From the NCBI GenBank assembly GCA_944332715.1, contig CALVKN010000068.1, forward strand, positions 11,572-75,571: a DNA stretch of 64,000 nucleotides, in the 5' to 3' direction. The notes below the pieces were generated by a model that worked only from the letters and a program-made list of their open reading frames with translations, searched no databases and was not told the origin of the DNA. This DNA is from an uncultured Bacilli bacterium (GTDB taxonomy: Bacteria; Bacillota_I; Bacilli_A; RF39; UBA660). Made by a program: the position numbers and the translations under genes. This document shows positions 44,268-50,938 of the stretch, piece by piece. How positions within the stretch are numbered: position 1 is the first letter of the stretch; each line of letters begins with the position of its first letter.

Positions 44268-45374
44268 TCAGCCGCCGCCCTTCGCCTGGCCGCCCGGAAA
44301 GCCGTCCTCCGGCGCGCCGGGGCGCAGCAGGCCGCCCAGCTGCTGCGCCAGCGCCGCCACGGCCTGCGCCGCGCCGGCGGCCTCGCGCCGCTGCTCGGGC
44401 GGCCAGGCGTCCAGCGGGGCACGCGCGCACTCCTCCAGCAGCTGGGCGAGCGCCGCGCGCAGCGTGCCGCAGCGCGCGCACAGACCCTGCGCCCCCACGC
44501 CCGGCTGCGCGCTGAGCGTCTGCTGCAGCGTGGCATACCGCAGCGCCATGTCCCGGTATCGCCGCCGCGCGGCGCTCAGCTGCCGCCCCTTTTCCCGCGC
44601 CTCCAGCGCGTGGCGCGCCGCCTCCTCCCGCGTACGCTCGGACAGCGACTGCAGCTCCAGCACCTGCCGGCGCAGCGCCGTGTCCGCCGTGCTGCCGAGC
44701 GCGCGGCGCAACTGCGCGTTGGACTCCTCGAGGCGGTGCAGCTTCTGCTCCATGCCGTCGATCTGGTCGGAAGCGGCGCTCTCCAGCGCCTCCAGCTGGG
44801 CGTTGCAGCGCTGCAGCCGCTGCACCTCTGCCCGCAGCTTCTGGTAGGCGGCGTTCACGGAGATCTGCCCCTCGTCCAGGCTGCGGATCAGCTCTGGCGG
44901 GGCGTGGCTCACGATGTACTTGGCCTGGCGGTACTTGTCCCGCCCGCCGATGCCGGCCTGCTGCGCCACGGCCTCTTCCACGCGGCCCACCGGCGCGCCC
45001 GCCGGCCGCTGCGCCCCCGGCAGGTTGGCCGCAGAGTTGCCCGCCGCCACCTGCCGGAGCGCCGCTTCCAGCCGCGCCGCCCAGCGCATGCGCTCGGAAA
45101 ACGTGAAGTCCTTGCGGTTTTCGTTCTCGCTGACCTCCAGCCGGAGCAGGTGCACCGCGTCCCGCACGGGCATGACGCGCACCTCGAGCTGCTTCCAGCC
45201 GAGCGACTTGCACGCGCGCAGCCGCCGTTCCCCTGCGATGAGCAGCAGCTCCGGCGTCACGAGCGGCGGCTGGATGAGCCCGTTTTCCGCGATGTCCGCC
45301 GCCAACTCCGCCACGTCGCCATAGTCCCTGCGGATCCGGTCCGCCAGCCGGATCCGGTCGATGTCCACCAGCAT
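44268..45374 (-). CDS. ParB/Srx-fold (ParB N-terminal nuclease-like domain) protein with a long C-terminal coiled-coil
   Basis: N-terminal MLVDIDRIRLADRIRRDYGDVAELAADIAENGLIQPPLVTPELLLIAGERRLRACKSLGWKQLEVRV with a GERR-like motif. Coiled-coil heptads follow (QLEALESAASDQIDGMEQKLHRLEESNAQLRRAL). Strong promoter TTGTCA-17-TATACT upstream on the minus strand. Confidence 0.7.
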   Translation of the reverse strand: MLVDIDRIRLADRIRRDYGDVAELAADIAENGLIQPPLVTPELLLIAGERRLRACKSLGWKQLEVRVMPVRDAVHLLRLEVSENENRKDFTFSERMRWAARLEAALRQVAAGNSAANLPGAQRPAGAPVGRVEEAVAQQAGIGGRDKYRQAKYIVSHAPPELIRSLDEGQISVNAAYQKLRAEVQRLQRCNAQLEALESAASDQIDGMEQKLHRLEESNAQLRRALGSTADTALRRQVLELQSLSERTREEAARHALEAREKGRQLSAARRRYRDMALRYATLQQTLSAQPGVGAQGLCARCGTLRAALAQLLEECARAPLDAWPPEQRREAAGAAQAVAALAQQLGGLLRPGAPEDGFPGGQAKGGG

Positions 45375-45569
45375 TTCGCGTCTGTCCCCTCTCTTATGGA
45401 TTTCAGAATGCAAACATTTGTTCGTATAAGGCAGTATAACATGGTATACTGCAAATGACAACCGGCCCGGCCGGTTTTTTCACGGGTTTTTTGCGCGGGT
45501 GCCGGCCCGCGCGCCAAGTGGCGGAAATCGGCCGGCCGGCATGGACACGAGCACGGAAAGGGGAGCAAC

Positions 45570-46748
45570 ATGGCACGACGGGAGAGGATACGCATCGGCG
45601 CGGTGGACGCCACGGCGCTGTATACGGAGCGGGAACGGGCGCTGGACGAGCGGCTGCGGCGAGCCGTGCGGAACCGGGTGCGGTACGAGCGGGCGCGGCG
45701 GGTGGTGCGCGCGTGCGCTGCCGGGCGGCGCGGGGAGCGGCAGGCGCTCGCGCAGCTGGAGCGCATCTATGGGTATGCGGTATTCCTGCTGCCGGAGGAG
45801 GACGAGCTTGCCGCCGCCATTGCCGCCTGCCGGGCGGAGGCCGCCGCGCAGCGGCGGGCGCTGCGCGCGGCGCTCCTGGCGCACGCCGGGCCGCGCAGCC
45901 TTGCGCCGGAGCGGGCGCGCGCAGGGGACGGCGCGTCGCTGCCCGCGTCGGCGCTGACGCGGCAGCTCGGGCTGCGGCCGGGCGCGCGCACCGGCGCGCT
46001 GCTCCTCGTGCGGGCGGCGCGGCCGGAGGCGCTTTTCAGCCTGGCGCGGCACGGGTTCACGGTGGGCGGGGCGCGCTATGTGGCGCTGGCCGCCGCGCCC
46101 GCGCCGGACGCGCTGCTGTTTCTGCGCGAGACGCTGTTCCGGCGGCATGAAAAGGCGCTGCTGGGCGGGCTGACCCGTGCGCGCATCCGTGCGCTGGCCG
46201 GCCGCCGGGCGGACCCGCGCGCACCGCTGCAGGCCTGCGCGGAGGCGACGGAACCGTGGGCGGCGTTCGACATCGGGCGCGCGATCGTGGTGGACGACGT
46301 GCCGCTGCCCGCGGGCGGCGCGGCGCCGTTCGGGCTCGTGCTGCCGCAGGTTTCGGGCGGGGCGGCGGTGCACGTGCGGCTGCCGTGGATCGAGGGGCGG
46401 CTGGAGCCGTTCCCGTTCGACGCGTTCCTCCGGGCGCGCGGCCAGGCCGGCCGCACGGTGCGCGACATCTACGGCAAGACGCACGACGTGCTCGCGGAGG
46501 GCGTACAGGTCATCTTTACGCGCAGCCAGTTCCGGCTCTGGCGGTGCTATGCGTGCTGGGCGGAATACCGCCTGTATTTTCGCGCGTACGGCTGCGAGGC
46601 GGAGCGCCGCGCCGCGCCGGCGGGCGCGTGCGCGGCGGGCGGGGCGGACGCGCGCGCCTTTTGCGAGCGGCTGTTTGGCGCCCGGCGTGCCCGGCGGCGG
46701 GCGGGACGGCCCGGCGCGGGCGGCGCGGCGCAAAGCGACGGGGAATGA
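45570..46748 (+). CDS. Hypothetical protein, no recognisable domain, first gene of the plus-strand NlpC/P60-holin cluster
   Basis: 392-codon ORF with AAAGGGGAG at -7 to -13, co-oriented and nearly contiguous with the downstream NlpC/P60 gene. Arg/Ala-rich, as expected at this GC content. Real coding status rests on the RBS and operon context only. Confidence 0.5.
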   Translation: MARRERIRIGAVDATALYTERERALDERLRRAVRNRVRYERARRVVRACAAGRRGERQALAQLERIYGYAVFLLPEEDELAAAIAACRAEAAAQRRALRAALLAHAGPRSLAPERARAGDGASLPASALTRQLGLRPGARTGALLLVRAARPEALFSLARHGFTVGGARYVALAAAPAPDALLFLRETLFRRHEKALLGGLTRARIRALAGRRADPRAPLQACAEATEPWAAFDIGRAIVVDDVPLPAGGAAPFGLVLPQVSGGAAVHVRLPWIEGRLEPFPFDAFLRARGQAGRTVRDIYGKTHDVLAEGVQVIFTRSQFRLWRCYACWAEYRLYFRAYGCEAERRAAPAGACAAGGADARAFCERLFGARRARRRAGRPGAGGAAQSDGE

Positions 46749-46775
46749 GGAGGAAAGGGGAATGAGGAGGAAACC

Positions 46776-47510
46776 ATGGTGGAATATACGAGATTGCTCA
46801 AACATTTGATGAAAGGCGACGACGTGCGGGCGGTCAAGGACCGGCTCGTGGCGCTCGGCTATCTGCATGCGGCGACGCACGACACGTTCGGGGACGACAC
46901 GCTGGAGGCGGTGCGGTCGTTCCAGCGCGCCGCGGGGCTCACGGTGGACGGCGTCGTGGGCCCGCTCACGTGGGCGGCGCTGTTTGCCGACGGCGCGCCG
47001 GAGCCGCCCGCGCCTGCCACGCCGTCGGATCTGGCGGAGCGGATGTGCGCGCTTGCCCAGCAGTACATCGGCCATCCGTATGTGTGGGCCGCGTCGGGGC
47101 AGGAGAACCCGACCGACGGCGACATCCGCGGCCTGGACAAGACGGAGGCGGACGCGGAGCGCTCCATCCGCTTTTGCGACGCGCTTCGGCGCGGAGGCGT
47201 GACGCAGATGCGCTGCTTCGACTGCTCGGGGTTCGTGTCGTTCCTGCTGCGCGAGGTGGGCGCGTGGGACGGGCGGCGCGACTGCGACGGGCTGTGGGGC
47301 TATTGCACGCCGCTGGCGCGGAGCGAGCTGATCGCGGGGGATTTCGTGCTGCGCGGGAGCGACGGCGACAAGACGCACATCGGCCTGTATGTGGGCGGCG
47401 GCTGGGTGGTGCACGCCAAGGGGCGCGACGACGGCGTGGTGAAGGAACCGGTGCAGCAGAGCGCGGGGTACTGGAAGTACTTTGGGCGTTGCCGCCTGCT
47501 GTACCCGTGA
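46776..47510 (+). CDS. Cell-wall hydrolase: N-terminal peptidoglycan-binding domain (PG_binding_1) plus C-terminal NlpC/P60 (C40) peptidase; endolysin-like
   Basis: VKDRLVALGYL...TLEAVRSFQRAAGLTVDGVVGPLTWAAL is a PG_binding_1 domain. CFDCSGFVSFLL ... H(IGLYVGGGWVVHA) is the Cys-His NlpC/P60 core. GGAGGAAACC Shine-Dalgarno. Confidence 0.8.
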   Translation: MVEYTRLLKHLMKGDDVRAVKDRLVALGYLHAATHDTFGDDTLEAVRSFQRAAGLTVDGVVGPLTWAALFADGAPEPPAPATPSDLAERMCALAQQYIGHPYVWAASGQENPTDGDIRGLDKTEADAERSIRFCDALRRGGVTQMRCFDCSGFVSFLLREVGAWDGRRDCDGLWGYCTPLARSELIAGDFVLRGSDGDKTHIGLYVGGGWVVHAKGRDDGVVKEPVQQSAGYWKYFGRCRLLYP

Positions 47511-47519
47511 GGTGGCGCG

Positions 47520-47837
47520 ATGGACGTGTGGGAGATCGTGCAGGCGGCGCTGCCGTCGCTGCTGGTGTCCGTCGCCATGGGGGTGTTCAGCCGCCGCCAG
47601 AGGAAGCGCGACGCGGCCACGCGGGAGCGGGAGGCGGCGCGGCTCGAGGCGGAGAACGTGCAGGTGTCGCTGCTCGTGGCGAGCGCCAAGCTGTCGTACG
47701 CGCTGGCCATGGCGGCCAAGCGCGGCGCGCCCAACGGCGAGGTGGAGGACGGCGTGGAGCAGTACCGGGAGGCGATGCGGGCGTTCAAGCGCCTGGAGCG
47801 CAAGCTCGTCGCCCGGAACAACTCCGAGGGGGCGTGA
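47520..47837 (+). CDS. Small single-TM protein of unknown function (N-terminal TM, charged coiled C-terminus)
   Basis: MDVWEIVQAALPSLLVSVAMGVFSRRQRKRD... one TM then an Arg/Glu-rich helix. GAGGTG Shine-Dalgarno. Tightly packed between the P60 gene and the holin. Confidence 0.55.
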   Translation: MDVWEIVQAALPSLLVSVAMGVFSRRQRKRDAATREREAARLEAENVQVSLLVASAKLSYALAMAAKRGAPNGEVEDGVEQYREAMRAFKRLERKLVARNNSEGA

Positions 47838-47941
47838 CGCGCCGCCAGGCACGGGGGCGCGCTTTGCGCCATATGATGAAAGTGGGCGGCGTGTGCGGCG
47901 CCGCCCGAAACCGACCAAGGAACGAAAGGAGAGAACACGAC

Positions 47942-48145
47942 ATGAAGGCCAATTTCATACTGTGGCTGAAAGCGGCGGCGGTGCGCGCGGTAAAGACGCT
48001 CGCACAGACGGCCGTGGCGACCATCGGCACGACGGCGATGCTGTCGGAGGTGGACTGGGTGCTGGTGGCGTCGGCCTCGGCGCTTGCGGGTATCCTGTCC
48101 ATCCTCACGAGCGTGGCCGGTCTGCCCGAAGTGAAGGAGGAATAG
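47942..48145 (+). CDS. Small phage-type holin (about 67 aa, 2 TM; Phage_holin_1 / phiLC3-like)
   Basis: MKANFILWLKAAAVRAVKTLAQTAVATIGTTAMLSEVDWVLVASASALAGILSILTSVAGLPEVKEE has the K..TxxQTxVAxIG pattern, two TM helices, and a charged C-terminal tail. AAAGGAGAG Shine-Dalgarno. Confidence 0.65.
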   Translation: MKANFILWLKAAAVRAVKTLAQTAVATIGTTAMLSEVDWVLVASASALAGILSILTSVAGLPEVKEE

Positions 48146-48149
48146 CGTA

Positions 48150-48220
48150 GGCCGACCGGCCTGGTCGGCTGTTTGACGGCGGGGATGCGCGTCCGGGGGA
48201 CGCGCATCCCCGCCTTTTTG
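48150..48220 (+). terminator. Tandem hairpin terminator after the holin
   Basis: GCCGACCGGCCTGGTCGGC followed by TGTTT, then GGGGATGCGCGTCCGGGGGACGCGCATCCCC followed by GCCTTTTTG. Confidence 0.75.
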
Positions 48221-48277
48221 CCGCGTGCACCGCTGTACATCCGCTTTTTGGCCGCGCCCGCCACGCCGGACGGCGTA

Positions 48278-48368
48278 AAATTGAACTTTTATCAACAAAT
48301 TGAACTTCCAAAAAGATATTGAACTTTTGTGGGTGGCGTGGTATAATGCTCAAACAGATTGAACTTTC
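48278..48368 (+). promoter_or_regulatory. AT-rich promoter region with four TTGAACTT direct repeats (19-nt spacing for the first three) flanking an extended -10 (TGGTATAAT), upstream of the HTH-aminotransferase gene
   Basis: AATTGAACTTTTATC...AATTGAACTTCCAAA...ATATTGAACTTTTGT...TGGTATAATGCTCAAACAGATTGAACTTTCGAGGAGG. The fourth copy lies between the -10 and the RBS. Confidence 0.6.
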
Positions 48369-48382
48369 GAGGAGGCAGGGCG

Positions 48383-49888
48383 ATGCCGCAGGAGACGTTT
48401 GCAGACCGGCTGAAGGTGGCAATGGCGCAGCGAGGCGTCAAGCAGGTGGACCTCATCCGCCTGGCGGCGGAGCGGGGCGTGAAGCTGGGCAAGAGCCACG
48501 TGAGCCAGTATGTCGGCGGCAAGACCGTGCCGCGTGCGGACGTGCTGCGCTTTCTTGCCGCGGCGCTGCAGGTGGACGAGGCGTGGCTGAAGGGGAGCGG
48601 GCCGGACGCGGCGCAGGGCGCCGGCACGGCCGGCGCAGACAGGACGGGAGACAGGACGCTTGGAGGAGAGAACATGCGCGAATTCAAAAAATCGTCAAAG
48701 CTGAACAACGTGTTGTACGACGTGCGCGGCCCGGTCGTGGACCAGGCGGCCAGGATGGAGGAGGACGGCACGCAGGTCCTGAAGCTGAACATCGGCAACC
48801 CGGCGCCGTTCGGGTTCCGCACGCCGGACGAGGTCATCTACGACATGCGCCGGCAGCTGACCGAGTGCGAGGGCTATTCCCCTGCCAAGGGGCTGTTCTC
48901 CGCGCGCAAGGCCATCATGCAGTATGCGCAGCTCAAGCAGATCCCGAACGTGACCATGGAAGACATCTATACCGGCAACGGCGTGAGCGAGCTCATCAAC
49001 CTCAGCATGTCGGCGCTGCTGGACGACCAGGACGAGATCCTGATCCCGTCGCCCGACTATCCGCTGTGGACGGCGAGCGCCACGCTGGCCGGCGGGCGGG
49101 TGGTGCACTACGTGTGCGACGAGCAGTCGGGCTGGTATCCCGACCTCGAGGACATCAAAAAAAAGGTAACGGATCGCACGAAGGCCATCGTCATCATCAA
49201 CCCGAACAACCCCACCGGCGCGCTGTACCCGAAGGCGGTGTTGCAGGGCATCGTGGACGTGGCGCGGCAGCATGGGCTGATCATCTTTTCGGACGAGATC
49301 TACGACCGGCTGGTCATGGACGGCGAGGAGCACGTCTCCATCGCGTCGCTGGCGCCGGACCTGTTCTGCGTCACGTTCAGCGGCCTGTCCAAGTCGCACA
49401 TGATCGCCGGCTTCCGCATCGGCTGGATGATCCTGAGCGGCAACAAAAAGCTGGCCAGGGACTACATCGAGGGGCTGCAAATGCTGTCCAACATGCGTTT
49501 GTGTTCCAACGTGCCGGCGCAGTCCATTGTGCAGACGGCGCTCGGCGGGCACCAGAGCACCCGCGCGTACCTCGTGCCGGGCGGGCGGCTGTATGAGCAG
49601 CGGGAGTACATCTACAATGCGCTGACCGACATCCCGGGCATCACGTGCGTCAAGCCGAAGGCCGCGTTTTACATGTTCCCGAAGATGGACGTGAAGAAAT
49701 TCCACATCGTGGACGACGAGCGGTTTGCGCTCGACCTGTTGCAGGATAAAAAGATCCTGCTGATCCACGGCGGCGGCTTCAACTGGAAGCAGCCGGACCA
49801 CTTCCGCGTGGTCTACCTGCCGCGCATCGAGGTGCTCAAAGAGGCGATGGAGAAGATCACGGACTTCTTCAGCTATTACCGGCAGTGA
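48383..49888 (+). CDS. XRE-family HTH domain fused in frame to a class-I PLP aminotransferase (AlaA/YfbQ-like alanine aminotransferase)
   Basis: N-terminal about 70 aa HTH_3 (FADRLKVAMAQRGVKQVDLIRLAAERGVKLGKSHVSQYVGGKTVPRADVLRFLAAAL). A Gly/Ala linker, then MREFKKSSKLNNVLYDVRGPVVDQAARMEEDGTQVLKLNIGNPAPFGF..., very close to E. coli AlaA; PLP lysine in SGLSKS. There is a Shine-Dalgarno before both the first ATG (48383) and the internal ATG (48674). Confidence 0.8.
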   Translation: MPQETFADRLKVAMAQRGVKQVDLIRLAAERGVKLGKSHVSQYVGGKTVPRADVLRFLAAALQVDEAWLKGSGPDAAQGAGTAGADRTGDRTLGGENMREFKKSSKLNNVLYDVRGPVVDQAARMEEDGTQVLKLNIGNPAPFGFRTPDEVIYDMRRQLTECEGYSPAKGLFSARKAIMQYAQLKQIPNVTMEDIYTGNGVSELINLSMSALLDDQDEILIPSPDYPLWTASATLAGGRVVHYVCDEQSGWYPDLEDIKKKVTDRTKAIVIINPNNPTGALYPKAVLQGIVDVARQHGLIIFSDEIYDRLVMDGEEHVSIASLAPDLFCVTFSGLSKSHMIAGFRIGWMILSGNKKLARDYIEGLQMLSNMRLCSNVPAQSIVQTALGGHQSTRAYLVPGGRLYEQREYIYNALTDIPGITCVKPKAAFYMFPKMDVKKFHIVDDERFALDLLQDKKILLIHGGGFNWKQPDHFRVVYLPRIEVLKEAMEKITDFFSYYRQ

Positions 49889-49921
49889 CGCGCCCGGCGC
49901 GGGCGCAGGGGAGGCGAGAGG

Positions 49922-50938
49922 ATGACGCAGGTCACGGTCATATCCGGGTTTTTGGGCGCGGGCAAGACCACGCTCGTGCGCAAGCTCGTGGCGGAGGCCT
50001 ACCGGGGCGAGCGCCTCGTGCTGCTGGAGAATGAATTCGGGCAGGCCGGCATCGACGGCGGCTTTTTACGGGATACGGGGCTGGCCATTTCGGAGCTGGA
50101 CGCGGGCTGCATCTGCTGCTCACTGTCCGGCGCGTTTACCGACGCGCTGCTCGAGGCACAGCGCACATACCGGCCGGACCGCATCCTCGTGGAGCCGTCC
50201 GGCGTGGGAAAACTTTCGGACATTTTGTCGGCCGTACATGCGCTCGAGGCGCGCGGCGAGCCGCTGCGCCTGACGGGGGCGGCGACGGTCGTGGACGCCA
50301 CGCGGTGCCAGACGTATCTCGACGAGTTTTCCACCTGGTACGACGACCAGATCGCGCATGCGGCGCTGCTCGTGTGCAGCCGCACGCAGGAGCTGCCGGA
50401 ACGCCGGCTGCTGGACGTGGTGCGCCGGTTGCGGCAGCTCAACGGCCGCGCGACGATCGTCACGACGCCGTGGGACGCGCTGGACGGGCGGCAGATCCGG
50501 CAGGCGCTCGAGGACCGGGCGGCGTTTGCGGACGCGCTCGCGCGTGAGCTGCTTGGCGGCGAAGCGCAGCCCGGCTGCGGCCACGGGCACGAACACGAAC
50601 ACGGGCACTGCCATGCGCATGAGCACTGCCACGAGCACGAACACGGGCACGCCCACCCGGCCGCGCCGTTTGAGAGCTGGAGCGCCGAAACGCCGCGGCA
50701 GTTCACGGAGCAGGCGCTGCGCGCCATCCTGGACGAGCTGGGCAGCGGGCGATACGGCGCGGTTTTGCGCGCCAAGGGCATCGTGCCGGCGGGGGTGGAC
50801 GCGTGGTGGCACTTCGACTATGTGCCGGGCGAGCCGGCGCTCCGCGCCGGGGGCGCGGAGGTGACGGGCCGCGTGTGCGTCATCGGCGTGGGGCTCGACC
50901 GGCACGGCATTGCCGCGCTGTTTGGCGAGCAGGCATAG
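49922..50938 (+). CDS. CobW/COG0523-family GTPase (putative metallochaperone) with a His-rich metal-binding stretch
   Basis: GFLGAGKTT P-loop, CxCC motif (GCICCS), His-rich GHGHEHEHGHCHAHEHCHEHEHGHAH, and a C-terminal CobW_C-like domain. Confidence 0.8.
   Translation: MTQVTVISGFLGAGKTTLVRKLVAEAYRGERLVLLENEFGQAGIDGGFLRDTGLAISELDAGCICCSLSGAFTDALLEAQRTYRPDRILVEPSGVGKLSDILSAVHALEARGEPLRLTGAATVVDATRCQTYLDEFSTWYDDQIAHAALLVCSRTQELPERRLLDVVRRLRQLNGRATIVTTPWDALDGRQIRQALEDRAAFADALARELLGGEAQPGCGHGHEHEHGHCHAHEHCHEHEHGHAHPAAPFESWSAETPRQFTEQALRAILDELGSGRYGAVLRAKGIVPAGVDAWWHFDYVPGEPALRAGGAEVTGRVCVIGVGLDRHGIAALFGEQA

What the first reader, a model, noticed from the sequence alone, without database searches (positions are those of the whole stretch)
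48278..49888. XRE-type HTH fused to a near-canonical alanine aminotransferase, preceded by four TTGAACTT iterons; the enzyme part keeps its own RBS
The ORF begins with a complete lambda-repressor-like HTH_3 domain, a Gly/Ala linker, and then a protein closely resembling E. coli AlaA (MREFKKSSKLNNVLYDVRGPV...KLNIGNPAPFGF), which normally stands alone. Upstream, an unusually AT-rich patch carries four TTGAACTT direct repeats. Three are spaced 19 nt apart upstream of an extended -10 (TGGTATAAT) and one lies between the -10 and the RBS, an arrangement suited to autoregulation by the N-terminal HTH. A second Shine-Dalgarno (GGAGGAGAGAAC) precedes the internal ATG at 48674, so an HTH-less enzyme could also be made. 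A metabolic enzyme that carries its own DNA-binding domain is reminiscent of MocR/GabR, which are GntR-aminotransferase fusions but lack catalysis, and of PutA. It is unusual for an active-looking AlaT with an XRE domain.
Basis: partly seen in the sequence, partly recalled or inferred. Interest (0 to 1): 0.55.

Follow-up and report, generated by a model that had tools for sequence, protein, structure and literature searches.

The report
Self-regulating alanine aminotransferase with built-in repressor domain
This gene encodes an apparently active alanine aminotransferase that carries a phage-repressor-type DNA-binding domain, sits behind a promoter covered by that domain's predicted binding sites, and keeps a conserved internal ribosome-binding site, so it probably controls its own synthesis and is made in two forms; the design is common in gut bacteria, and I found no study of it.

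Summary
ORF 48383-49888 (501 aa) has three parts: an XRE/CI-type HTH (residues 1-72), a disordered linker, and an ungapped match to the whole of E. coli AlaA (E 1e-169) with the catalytic residues named in the AlaA structure paper invariant. Four exact ATTGAACTT copies lie at 48280, 48299, 48318 and 48358. Copy 3 supplies the -35 of the only promoter-like site, and copy 4 lies between the -10 and the RBS.

The fusion is not a rarity. At least 565 genome hits were found (mostly Lachnospiraceae, also Oscillospiraceae, Coriobacteriales and Bifidobacterium), and all 80 loci kept carry it.

The motif is a strong phylogenetic footprint:
- ATTGAACT occurs upstream in 74 of 81 loci.
- Copy spacing peaks at about 20, 30, 42 and 52 bp.
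- A copy serves as the -35 in 64 of 81 loci.
- No such clusters occur elsewhere in 639 kb.

The closest solved structure to the HTH is the phage TP901-1 CI N-terminal domain, whose operator half-site contains TGAACT.

The internal Shine-Dalgarno is conserved at nucleotide level. GGAGG/AGGAG precedes 78% of Met98 equivalents, against 2% of other internal Met codons.

Best reading: a dimeric enzyme-repressor that represses its own promoter and is co-produced with an HTH-less isoform. DNA binding, the effector and the two isoforms are inferred, not shown. I found no literature on it. It is a new variant of the trigger-enzyme / MocR theme.

The parts
48280..48288 (+). Operator copy 1 (ATTGAACTT), about 40 bp upstream of the -35 copy
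   Evidence: Exact copy. Orthologous loci often have a copy 40 bp upstream of the -35 copy (position -63 relative to the -10).
48299..48307 (+). Operator copy 2 (ATTGAACTT), 19 bp upstream of copy 3
   Evidence: Exact copy. Position -43/-42 relative to the -10 is a recurrent site in the 81 loci. The 19-21 bp spacing is the commonest.
48318..48326 (+). Operator copy 3 (ATTGAACTT). Its TTGAAC (48319-48324) is the -35 hexamer.
   Evidence: Promoter scan. A motif copy serves as the -35 in 64 of 81 loci.
48339..48347 (+). Extended -10 (TGgTATAAT)
   Evidence: Only promoter-like site in 47900-50100. A TG-extended -10 occurs in 56 of the 64 loci with this architecture.
48358..48366 (+). Operator copy 4 (ATTGAACTT), between the -10 and the RBS, at the start of the transcript
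   Evidence: Exact copy. Copies 18-20 nt after the start of the -10 recur in the orthologous loci.
48370..48375 (+). Shine-Dalgarno (AGGAGG) of the full-length form
   Evidence: Sequence. An SD-like 4-mer lies before the first start in 74 of 81 loci.
48383..48598 (+). XRE / CI-type helix-turn-helix domain (residues 1-72)
   Evidence: E 5e-10 to TP901-1 CI N-terminal domain structures 5A7L, 3ZHM, 6TRI and 3ZHI. HTH_31/HTH_3 hits are sub-threshold. AF2 gives five helices with pLDDT 77-91. Codon-position identity is 0.73/0.84/0.41.
48599..48673 (+). Disordered Gly/Ala-rich linker (residues 73-97). It contains the internal Shine-Dalgarno GGAGG at 48662-48666.
   Evidence: pLDDT about 26. Linker length and sequence vary among orthologues. 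GGAGG codon bias and SD enrichment.
48674..49888 (+). AlaA-type alanine (glutamate-pyruvate) aminotransferase domain, residues 98-501, starting at the internal ATG (Met98 = AlaA Met1) and ending at the stop codon
   Evidence: Ungapped alignment to 4CVQ, E 1e-169. Aminotran_1_2 E 5e-54. Y112, R115, Y165, Y307, K337 and Y430 correspond to AlaA Y15, R18, Y68, Y210, K240 and Y333, and all are invariant (PMC4094517).

Best explanation
The gene encodes a bifunctional enzyme-repressor.

The C-terminal 404 residues are a catalytically competent AlaA-type alanine aminotransferase. By homology it forms the symmetric homodimer typical of this fold.

The N-terminal 72 residues are a TP901-1-CI-like HTH on a flexible linker. 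An isolated domain of this type binds DNA weakly, and dimerisation gives tight cooperative binding. Here the enzyme dimer replaces the phage repressor's oligomerisation domain.

The two tethered HTHs would bind ATTGAACTT sites whose spacings recur at about one-helical-turn intervals. In this window one site is the -35 hexamer, two lie 19 and 38 bp upstream of it, and one covers the first transcribed bases. Occupancy would therefore block RNA polymerase and give negative autoregulation of the enzyme.

The same mRNA carries a conserved second Shine-Dalgarno and ATG exactly at the AlaA start. An HTH-less enzyme is therefore probably made as well. It could act as plain enzyme, and by forming mixed dimers it could lower the DNA-binding valency.

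The linker attaches to the AlaA N-terminal arm. That arm forms part of the dimer interface, and its plug orders when substrate binds. Substrate or cofactor occupancy could therefore modulate DNA binding.

Shown from sequence: the domain composition, the conservation of the fusion, the operator footprint and its promoter geometry, and the internal SD.

Inferred: DNA binding by this HTH, repression rather than activation, use of both starts, and any effector control.
For: Fusion is real and selected.
- The best 120 protein homologues are all about 500 aa with 99-100% query coverage in all but one.
- There are 565 genome hits. All 80 kept loci encode the HTH fusion, with matches starting at query residue 1-6.
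- The frame is open in 81 of 81 loci despite varying linker length.
- HTH third codon positions vary most, at 0.41 identity against 0.73 and 0.84.

Enzyme is intact.
- Ungapped match to AlaA 4CVQ, E 1e-169.
- The catalytic and plug residues named in PMC4094517 are invariant in alignment A1.

Operator.
- ATTGAACT and TTGAACTT occur in 74 and 72 of 81 upstream regions. The commonest 8-mer in a control region occurs in 6.
- In the 200 nt upstream of the start, 243 copies are on the + strand and 25 on the - strand.
- Spacing peaks at 19-21, 29-32, 41-43 and 52 bp.
- A copy is the -35 in 64 of 81 loci, with further copies at conserved positions upstream and just after the -10.
- 80 of 81 loci have at least 2 copies within 350 nt. 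The only other cluster in 639 kb is the distal promoter of the same gene.

Link between HTH and motif.
- The best PDB match is the TP901-1 CI N-terminal domain, with a closely similar stretch (KLGKSHVSQYV against KLSKSTLSQYV).
- The TP901-1 OL operator is AGTTCATGAAACGTGAACT, so it shares TGAACT.
- Monomeric CI N-terminal domain binds weakly and the dimer binds cooperatively.

Internal start.
- GGAGG encodes the linker Gly-Gly in 46 of 48 loci, against 101 of 402 other Gly-Gly pairs.
- A strong SD precedes 78% of Met98 equivalents, against 2% of 782 other internal Met codons.
- Met98 aligns with AlaA Met1.
Against: - No experimental data exist for any member, and I found no paper on it.
- The motif contains a near-consensus -35 (TTGAAC), so part of its conservation could reflect promoter function. 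That does not explain the copies downstream of the -10 or those 20 and 40 bp upstream.
- Most copies are direct repeats, whereas TP901-1 CI binds an inverted repeat. The arrangement relies on the long flexible linker.
- A long disordered linker is a poor conduit for allostery, so effector control is the weakest step.
- Some distant fusions (P0178, P0208) lack the internal Met, so the short isoform is not universal.
- The AF2 model of the whole protein was poor (pLDDT 54) and says nothing about domain contacts.
- The regulon could not be surveyed. The metagenome scan was swamped by an unrelated repeat.
Confidence: 0.7

Rival explanations
1. The protein is a MocR-like regulator. The aminotransferase domain would be a non-catalytic or weakly catalytic sensor and dimerisation module, and the protein would mainly control transcription (of itself and possibly other genes) in response to alanine, pyruvate or PLP.
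For: The architecture (DNA-binding domain, linker, fold-type-I aminotransferase dimer) and the direct-repeat operators resemble GabR/MocR (my own knowledge of that family). Operator arrays at the promoter.
Against: - The aminotransferase domain aligns to E. coli AlaA end to end without a gap (E 1e-169), and all named catalytic and plug residues are invariant.
- It is more conserved than the HTH.
- A conserved internal SD/ATG at the exact AlaA start suggests an HTH-less product is wanted, which fits an enzyme rather than a pure regulator.
- The HTH is XRE/CI-type, not a GntR winged helix.
Confidence: 0.1
2. Only the internal start is used. The upstream in-frame HTH segment would be an untranslated leader or a decaying remnant, and the repeats would be promoter elements or sites for another regulator.
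For: Strong conserved SD and ATG at Met98. One database member of a 90%-identity cluster is annotated as 404 aa from the internal start (P0290). For this sequence the Pfam HTH scores are below the gathering cut-offs.
Against: - The HTH shows purifying selection with a coding signature and no stop codon in any of 81 loci, despite varying linker length.
- An SD-like 4-mer lies before the first start in 74 of 81 loci.
- HTH residues are invariant across genera.
- The motif travels with the HTH across phyla.
Confidence: 0.04
3. The HTH-enzyme activates rather than represses, or controls a wider regulon (alanine or pyruvate metabolism, transport), with self-control only one part.
For: - Copies 20 and 40 bp upstream of the -35 could act as activator sites.
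- Genome-wide site distribution could not be examined.
- One array of five AAATTGAACTT copies precedes an unrelated 234-aa ORF in a metagenome contig (L123).
Against: - One copy replaces the -35 and another sits at the transcript start, next to a strong TG-extended -10. This is the geometry of repression.
- No other motif cluster was found in 639 kb around 81 loci or in the 64-kb window.
Confidence: 0.12
4. The gene or its operator is phage-derived cargo belonging to the adjacent lysis cassette, and the HTH is a prophage repressor accidentally fused in this genome.
For: - A holin and an endolysin lie immediately upstream at 46776-48145.
- The HTH resembles a phage CI.
Against: - A strong terminator (48178-48214) separates the cassette from the gene.
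- None of the window's neighbours tested is syntenic with the gene in the 80 related loci (three weak hits only, in other positions), yet all 80 keep the fusion and 79 of them at least two motif copies within 350 nt.
- In this species the cassette is a fixed five-gene island between chromosomal genes, not a prophage.
Confidence: 0.02

Closest known systems
MocR / GabR family (GntR-type winged HTH fused to a fold-type-I aminotransferase domain)
   Same: - N-terminal DNA-binding domain, flexible linker, then a PLP-fold aminotransferase domain that dimerises.
- Binding sites are direct repeats at the regulator's own promoter region.
- Autoregulation.
(The GabR features are from my own knowledge of the family.)
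   Different: - The DNA-binding domain is an XRE/CI-type HTH, not a GntR winged helix.
- The aminotransferase domain aligns ungapped to the whole of E. coli AlaA (E 1e-169) with its catalytic residues intact. MocR domains are sensors with little or no transaminase activity.
- There is a conserved internal start for a form without the DNA-binding domain.
Trigger enzymes with a fused DNA-binding domain (PutA, BirA, NadR)
   Same: An active metabolic enzyme carries its own DNA-binding domain and represses its own gene or operon, so enzyme level and metabolic state are coupled (my own knowledge; the concept is from Commichau and Stulke 2008).
   Different: - The enzyme (alanine aminotransferase) and the HTH class are different, and there is no sequence relationship.
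- The effector logic is unknown here.
- As far as I recall, a second translation start giving an enzyme-only isoform is not a feature of those systems.
CI repressor of lactococcal phage TP901-1 (N-terminal domain)
   Same: - Closest solved relative of the HTH, E 5e-10, with a closely similar stretch KS..SQYV.
- Its half-site AGTTCA(Y)G shares TGAACT with the repeat here.
- The DNA-binding domain is joined by a flexible linker to an oligomerisation module, and dimerisation is needed for tight binding.
   Different: - In CI the oligomerisation module is a helical C-terminal domain giving hexamers. Here it is an enzyme dimer.
- CI operators are inverted repeats. Here they are mostly direct repeats about 20 bp apart.
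- This is a chromosomal housekeeping gene, not a lysogeny switch.
E. coli AlaA (glutamate-pyruvate aminotransferase, PDB 4CVQ)
   Same: Residues 98-501 align without gaps to all 404 residues compared, including Met1, the N-terminal plug (Tyr15, Arg18), Tyr68, Tyr210, Lys240 and Tyr333.
   Different: AlaA has no DNA-binding domain. E. coli alaA is controlled in trans (by Lrp, from my own knowledge), and B. subtilis alaT by the separate regulator AlaR.

Membership tests
AlaA-type alanine aminotransferase (class I, fold type I) | Full-length similarity to a characterised AlaA | tested here: met
   Ungapped alignment of residues 98-501 to 4CVQ, E 1e-169. Aminotran_1_2 E 5e-54. The best NCBIfam model is alanine aminotransferase PRK08363, but at 363 bits it is below its 534-bit cut-off.
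AlaA-type alanine aminotransferase (class I, fold type I) | Schiff-base lysine and the active-site Tyr/Arg residues, including the N-terminal plug | tested here: met
   K337, Y307, Y165, Y430, Y112 and R115 correspond to AlaA K240, Y210, Y68, Y333, Y15 and R18. All are invariant in 32 fusion proteins. Residue roles are from PMC4094517.
AlaA-type alanine aminotransferase (class I, fold type I) | Alanine-pyruvate transaminase activity | not testable with these tools
   Needs an enzyme assay or complementation.
XRE / lambda-repressor-like HTH (CI N-terminal domain type) | Sequence match to the HTH_3 / HTH_31 profiles | tested here: inconclusive
   HTH_31 scores 23.7 bits (cut-off 27) and HTH_3 18.6 bits (cut-off 23) for this sequence. 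Many orthologues carry a precomputed PF01381 hit.
XRE / lambda-repressor-like HTH (CI N-terminal domain type) | Homology to a solved member, and a five-helix fold | tested here: met
   E 5e-10 to the TP901-1 CI N-terminal domain, four PDB entries. The AF2 model has five helices in residues 6-70 with pLDDT 77-91.
XRE / lambda-repressor-like HTH (CI N-terminal domain type) | Sequence-specific DNA binding | not testable with these tools
   Only indirect support: the conserved ATTGAACTT footprint and the TGAACT shared with the TP901-1 operator.
MocR / GabR regulators | GntR-type winged-helix N-terminal domain | tested here: not met
   No GntR hit. The domain is XRE/CI-type.
MocR / GabR regulators | Aminotransferase-like domain used as an effector sensor with degenerate catalysis | tested here: not met
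   The domain is near-canonical AlaA with all named catalytic residues invariant. This is judged from sequence only.
Trigger enzymes with a DNA-binding domain (functional class, not a homology family) | An active enzyme and a DNA-binding domain in one polypeptide | tested here: met
   One open frame in 81 of 81 loci, with both parts under purifying selection.
Trigger enzymes with a DNA-binding domain (functional class, not a homology family) | The DNA-binding domain controls expression in response to the enzyme's metabolic state | not testable with these tools
   The operator geometry suggests autorepression. Effector dependence is unknown.

The most novel reading that the evidence does not exclude
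One mRNA yields two subunits, a long one (HTH plus enzyme) and a short one (enzyme only). Only long-long dimers carry two HTHs and bind the about-20-bp-spaced sites tightly. The ratio of the two translation starts, together with substrate-dependent ordering of the N-terminal arm to which the linker is attached, would then set repression. This would be a valency-based feedback in which a central nitrogen-metabolism enzyme reads out both its own abundance and its substrate occupancy. It would also be a case in which a phage CI-type DNA-binding module was captured, with a metabolic enzyme replacing the repressor's oligomerisation domain.
Probability: 0.2. Interest if true: 0.7.

Novelty: new variant of a known kind. 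Interest (0 to 1): 0.55.

Why it matters
Alanine aminotransferase links pyruvate, glutamate and alanine pools. Those pools feed peptidoglycan and nitrogen balance.

In E. coli and B. subtilis the enzyme is controlled by separate regulators. In many abundant gut Lachnospiraceae and Oscillospiraceae, and in some Actinobacteria, the enzyme appears to carry its regulator. It also has a simple, recognisable operator (ATTGAACTT arrays across the promoter).

That makes three things available:
- A compact, experimentally tractable example of enzyme-encoded gene control.
- A predicted operator and promoter pair usable for genetics in poorly tractable gut anaerobes.
- A natural test of how a weakly binding HTH gains affinity from an unrelated dimeric scaffold.

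It also has a practical consequence for annotation. These proteins are named simply as aminotransferases, and at least one database member is called from the internal start, so the regulatory domain goes unnoticed.

Tried and rejected
- **Literature.** Five searches for the fusion returned nothing relevant: a remembered CDD name ('bifunctional HTH-domain containing protein'), 'PRK13355', HTH_3 with Aminotran_1_2, XRE with aminotransferase, and alanine aminotransferase with helix-turn-helix and Lachnospiraceae. A motif search gave only primer coincidences.
- **Regulon scan.** I scanned the metagenome collection with ATTGAACTTN{10,12}ATTGAACTT. Only 4 of 120 stretches lie before the fusion gene. 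Most of the others I inspected are an unrelated tandem 'CATTGAACTTTGAAC' repeat, so nothing can be said about other targets.
- **Whole-protein AF2.** The model from a 32-sequence alignment was poor (pLDDT 54). It is useful only for the HTH and the linker, so I ran no fold search.
- **Stand-alone HTH relatives.** In the search of the HTH against 1.84 billion representatives, most top hits were short. Most of the short ones I inspected are truncated or frameshifted fragments of the same fusion, and none is clearly a stand-alone protein.
- **Covariation idea.** Six Blautia-like loci seemed to lack the motif and have SQYL instead of SQYV. I dropped this, because five of the six carry motif copies at a promoter 100-300 nt upstream (an inverted pair in three), and the sixth has its cluster still further upstream.
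- **Rfam.** Scans of the window and of those loci gave no RNA family.
- **Prophage-cargo idea.** Rejected.
- **Motif inside the coding region.** The AGTTCAA enrichment at about +1300 appears to come from the conserved Lys-Phe-Asn codons of the enzyme there, not from an operator.
Full report
**1. What is in the sequence**

The ORF runs from ATG 48383 to the stop at 49886-49888 and encodes 501 aa. AGGAGG at 48370-48375 lies 7 nt before the start.

Four exact copies of ATTGAACTT lie at 48280, 48299, 48318 and 48358 on the + strand. They are the only exact copies in the 64-kb window. At one mismatch the window has 8 hits against 2.3 expected, and no shuffle out of 100 reaches 8.

The promoter scan finds a single sigma-70-like site between 47900 and 50100. 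It is TTGAAC at 48319, a 17-nt spacer, and TATAAT ending at 48347, preceded by TG. Repeat 3 therefore is the -35 hexamer. Repeats 1 and 2 lie 38 and 19 bp upstream of it. Repeat 4 lies between the -10 and the RBS, at the first transcribed bases. A strong terminator at 48178-48214 closes the upstream holin gene.

The internal ATG at 48674 is Met98, in frame. GGAGG at 48662-48666 lies 7 nt before it.

**2. The protein**

Residues 98-501 align without a gap to all of E. coli AlaA (PDB 4CVQ), E 1e-169, and Met98 falls on AlaA Met1. The AlaA structure paper (PMC4094517) gives the following:
- Lys240 is the Schiff-base lysine.
- Tyr210, Tyr68 (from the partner subunit) and Tyr333 are active-site residues.
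- An N-terminal arm has a 'plug' (Tyr15, Ile17, Arg18) that enters the active site and orders when substrate is bound.
- The first ten residues form part of the dimer interface of a symmetric homodimer.

The equivalents here are K337, Y307, Y165, Y430, Y112 and R115. All are invariant in an alignment of 32 fusion proteins. By sequence, the enzyme part looks fully active.

Residues 1-72 give only sub-threshold Pfam HTH_31/HTH_3 scores. They match the N-terminal DNA-binding domain of the CI repressor of lactococcal phage TP901-1 at E 5e-10, in four PDB entries. A stretch of the HTH is closely similar in the two proteins (KLGKSHVSQYV here, KLSKSTLSQYV in CI).

An AF2 model gives five confident helices for residues 6-70 and a disordered linker with pLDDT about 26. 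The rest of the model is poor because the alignment is shallow.

**3. The fusion is widespread and under selection**

- The best 120 protein homologues are all about 500 aa, 99-100% query coverage in all but one, and are 68-86% identical. Many carry PF01381 plus PF00155.
- A scan of one genome per species found 565 relatives. All 80 kept loci encode the HTH fusion, with matches starting at query residue 1-6. They are mainly Lachnospiraceae (Blautia, Mediterraneibacter, Eisenbergiella). They also include Oscillospiraceae, a Coriobacteriales MAG and the isolate Bifidobacterium pullorum DSM 20433.
- The frame stays open from the HTH start to the enzyme's stop in all 81 loci, although the linker varies in length and sequence.
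- Within the HTH, mean pairwise identity is 0.73, 0.84 and 0.41 at codon positions 1, 2 and 3. That is a coding signature.
- The window's neighbours tested are not syntenic with the gene in the 80 loci, so the gene with its promoter is a self-contained unit.
- Database names are generic ('aminotransferase class I/II-fold PLP-dependent enzyme', 'alanine-synthesizing transaminase'). One cluster member is annotated from the internal start as 404 aa.

**4. The repeats are a phylogenetic footprint with promoter-linked geometry**

- An unbiased 8-mer count in the 150 nt upstream of the 81 genes puts ATTGAACT in 74 loci and TTGAACTT in 72. The commonest 8-mer of a control region occurs in 6.
- TTGAACT is concentrated in the 200 nt upstream of the start, with 243 copies on the + strand and 25 on the - strand. 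It is almost absent elsewhere.
- With TTGAACT on the + strand within 220 nt, the usual number is 3-4 copies per locus.
- Successive copies are spaced 19-21, 29-32, 41-43 or 52 bp apart. The peaks are about one helical turn (roughly 10-11 bp) apart.
- In 64 of 81 loci a copy supplies the -35 hexamer 16-18 nt before a 5-of-6 or better TATAAT. TG precedes the -10 in 56 of these. Further copies recur 20 and 40 bp upstream of the -35 copy and 18-20 nt after the start of the -10.
- Within 350 nt upstream, 80 of 81 loci have at least two copies on either strand. In 639 kb of held DNA the only other cluster is the distal promoter of the same gene in one locus.
- The motif persists in high-GC Bifidobacterium and Coriobacteriales upstream regions, where nothing else is shared.
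- A Blautia-like subgroup of six loci at first seemed to lack the motif. Five of them carry copies at a promoter 100-300 nt upstream, in three as an inverted pair (TTGAAT-N6-GTTCAA), and the sixth has its cluster still further upstream.

**5. Why the HTH is the likely binder**

The TP901-1 OL operator is AGTTCATGAAACGTGAACT (PMC4941734), and the OR half-site is AGTTCACG (PMC7250872). The half-site therefore contains TGAACT, the core of the repeat found here.

The same paper shows that the monomeric CI N-terminal domain binds weakly. A dimer joined through a flexible linker binds cooperatively, and the tethered domains sample a large conformational space.

By analogy, the AlaA-type homodimer would supply the dimerisation that the phage repressor gets from its C-terminal domain. 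Both linkers start at the dimer interface, which should suit sites about two helical turns apart in either orientation.

This step is inference. No binding experiment exists.

**6. The internal start**

In an otherwise unconserved linker, a Gly-Gly lies four residues before the Met98 equivalent. It is encoded GGAGG in 46 of 48 loci that have it, whereas only 101 of 402 other Gly-Gly pairs in the same genes use GGAGG. Fisher's test gives p about 1e-22, but the loci are not phylogenetically independent.

In this high-GC window the other Gly-Gly pairs I read in the enzyme part (the two GG pairs and the GGG run at residues 388-389, 400-401 and 463-465) use GGC or GGG, while the linker pair is GGA GGA.

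A strong SD (GGAGG or AGGAG) lies 4-20 nt before 78% of Met98 equivalents, against 2% of 782 other internal Met codons.

The nucleotide sequence, and not only the protein, is therefore under selection. This is what is expected if ribosomes also start at Met98 and make a plain AlaA. Some distant fusions lack this Met (P0178, P0208), so the short form is common but not universal.

**7. Mechanism proposed**

Full-length dimers bind the operator array. They occlude the -35 and the transcription start and repress their own gene. This gives homeostatic control of enzyme level.

The enzyme-only isoform adds catalytic capacity. By forming mixed dimers it may dilute the two-HTH species.

The linker is attached to the N-terminal arm, whose plug orders on substrate binding. 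Substrate or cofactor occupancy could therefore alter the reach or freedom of the HTHs. This is the most speculative step.

The alternatives are weighed in the rivals section: a MocR-like non-catalytic regulator, an untranslated leader, an activator or wider regulon, and phage cargo. Each meets specific contrary evidence.

**8. Comparison with known systems, and novelty**

In function it resembles trigger enzymes with a DNA-binding domain (PutA, BirA, NadR). In architecture it resembles MocR/GabR.

It is not a MocR member. The DNA-binding domain is XRE/CI-type and the aminotransferase domain is a bona fide AlaA.

I recall a CDD model named 'bifunctional HTH-domain containing protein/aminotransferase' (PRK13355). 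That is from memory and could not be confirmed here. If correct, the domain fusion itself has been catalogued.

No paper in the searchable library describes the fusion, its operator or the internal start.

I rate it a new variant of a known kind, of moderate interest. The prediction is clear and cheap to test, and it concerns abundant gut bacteria. The principle, an enzyme that represses its own gene, is established.

Noticed in passing
window 44268-48145: A ParB_N-like gene (- strand), an unknown 392-aa ORF, an NlpC/P60 + PG_binding_1 endolysin, a 105-aa ORF and an r1t-type holin form a five-gene phage-like cassette. In the six contigs of this species that reach far enough upstream, the whole cassette sits between TspO/YchF and the aminotransferase gene; the other two contigs are cut short on that side. 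It is therefore a fixed island rather than a prophage. It lies close to the sporulation genes SpoIIR, SleB and YpeB.
   Followed up: partly
window 49922-50938: A CobW/G3E-family GTPase with a His-rich stretch (HGHEHEHGHCHAHEHCHEHEHGHAH) starts 33 nt after the aminotransferase stop. No terminator was detected between them, so the two genes may be co-transcribed. The pairing is not conserved in other genera.
   Followed up: partly
L028, L041, L046, L051, L059, L060 (about 100-620 nt upstream of the fusion gene): In a Blautia wexlerae-like subgroup the motif-bearing promoter lies well upstream of the start codon, leaving a long leader. L028, L041 and L051 have an inverted pair TTGAAT-N6-GTTCAA overlapping the -35 and spacer about 250-300 nt upstream, and L046 has its cluster about 550-620 nt upstream. 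L046 and L059 share a leader element AATCAAGTAGCGAAGCnGATGATTTTAT. There is no Rfam match.
   Followed up: partly
P0131 (640 aa) and P0224 (850 aa): These proteins consist of 7 and 9 tandem copies of a CI-like HTH related to the one studied here. This is an unusual multi-HTH architecture.
   Followed up: no
L082, L085, L094, L128, L135, L192, L200 and others: An unrelated intergenic tandem repeat built of TTTGAAC/CATTGAAC units, with up to 18 copies, recurs in metagenome contigs of about 42-59% GC. It often ends in ...ATTGAACTTTATGATTAG. Its nature is unknown.
   Followed up: no
L123, about position 719 (- strand): Five AAATTGAACTT copies resembling the operator array precede a 234-aa ORF (MKKVFVILDVETITSARLVFD...) unrelated to the aminotransferase. 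It could be another target or a phage operator.
   Followed up: no
about +1300 nt inside the fusion gene in 29 of the 81 loci: AGTTCAA, the reverse complement of the motif core, recurs here. It appears to arise from the conserved Lys-Phe-Asn codons at this position, so it looks like a coding coincidence rather than an operator.
   Followed up: partly
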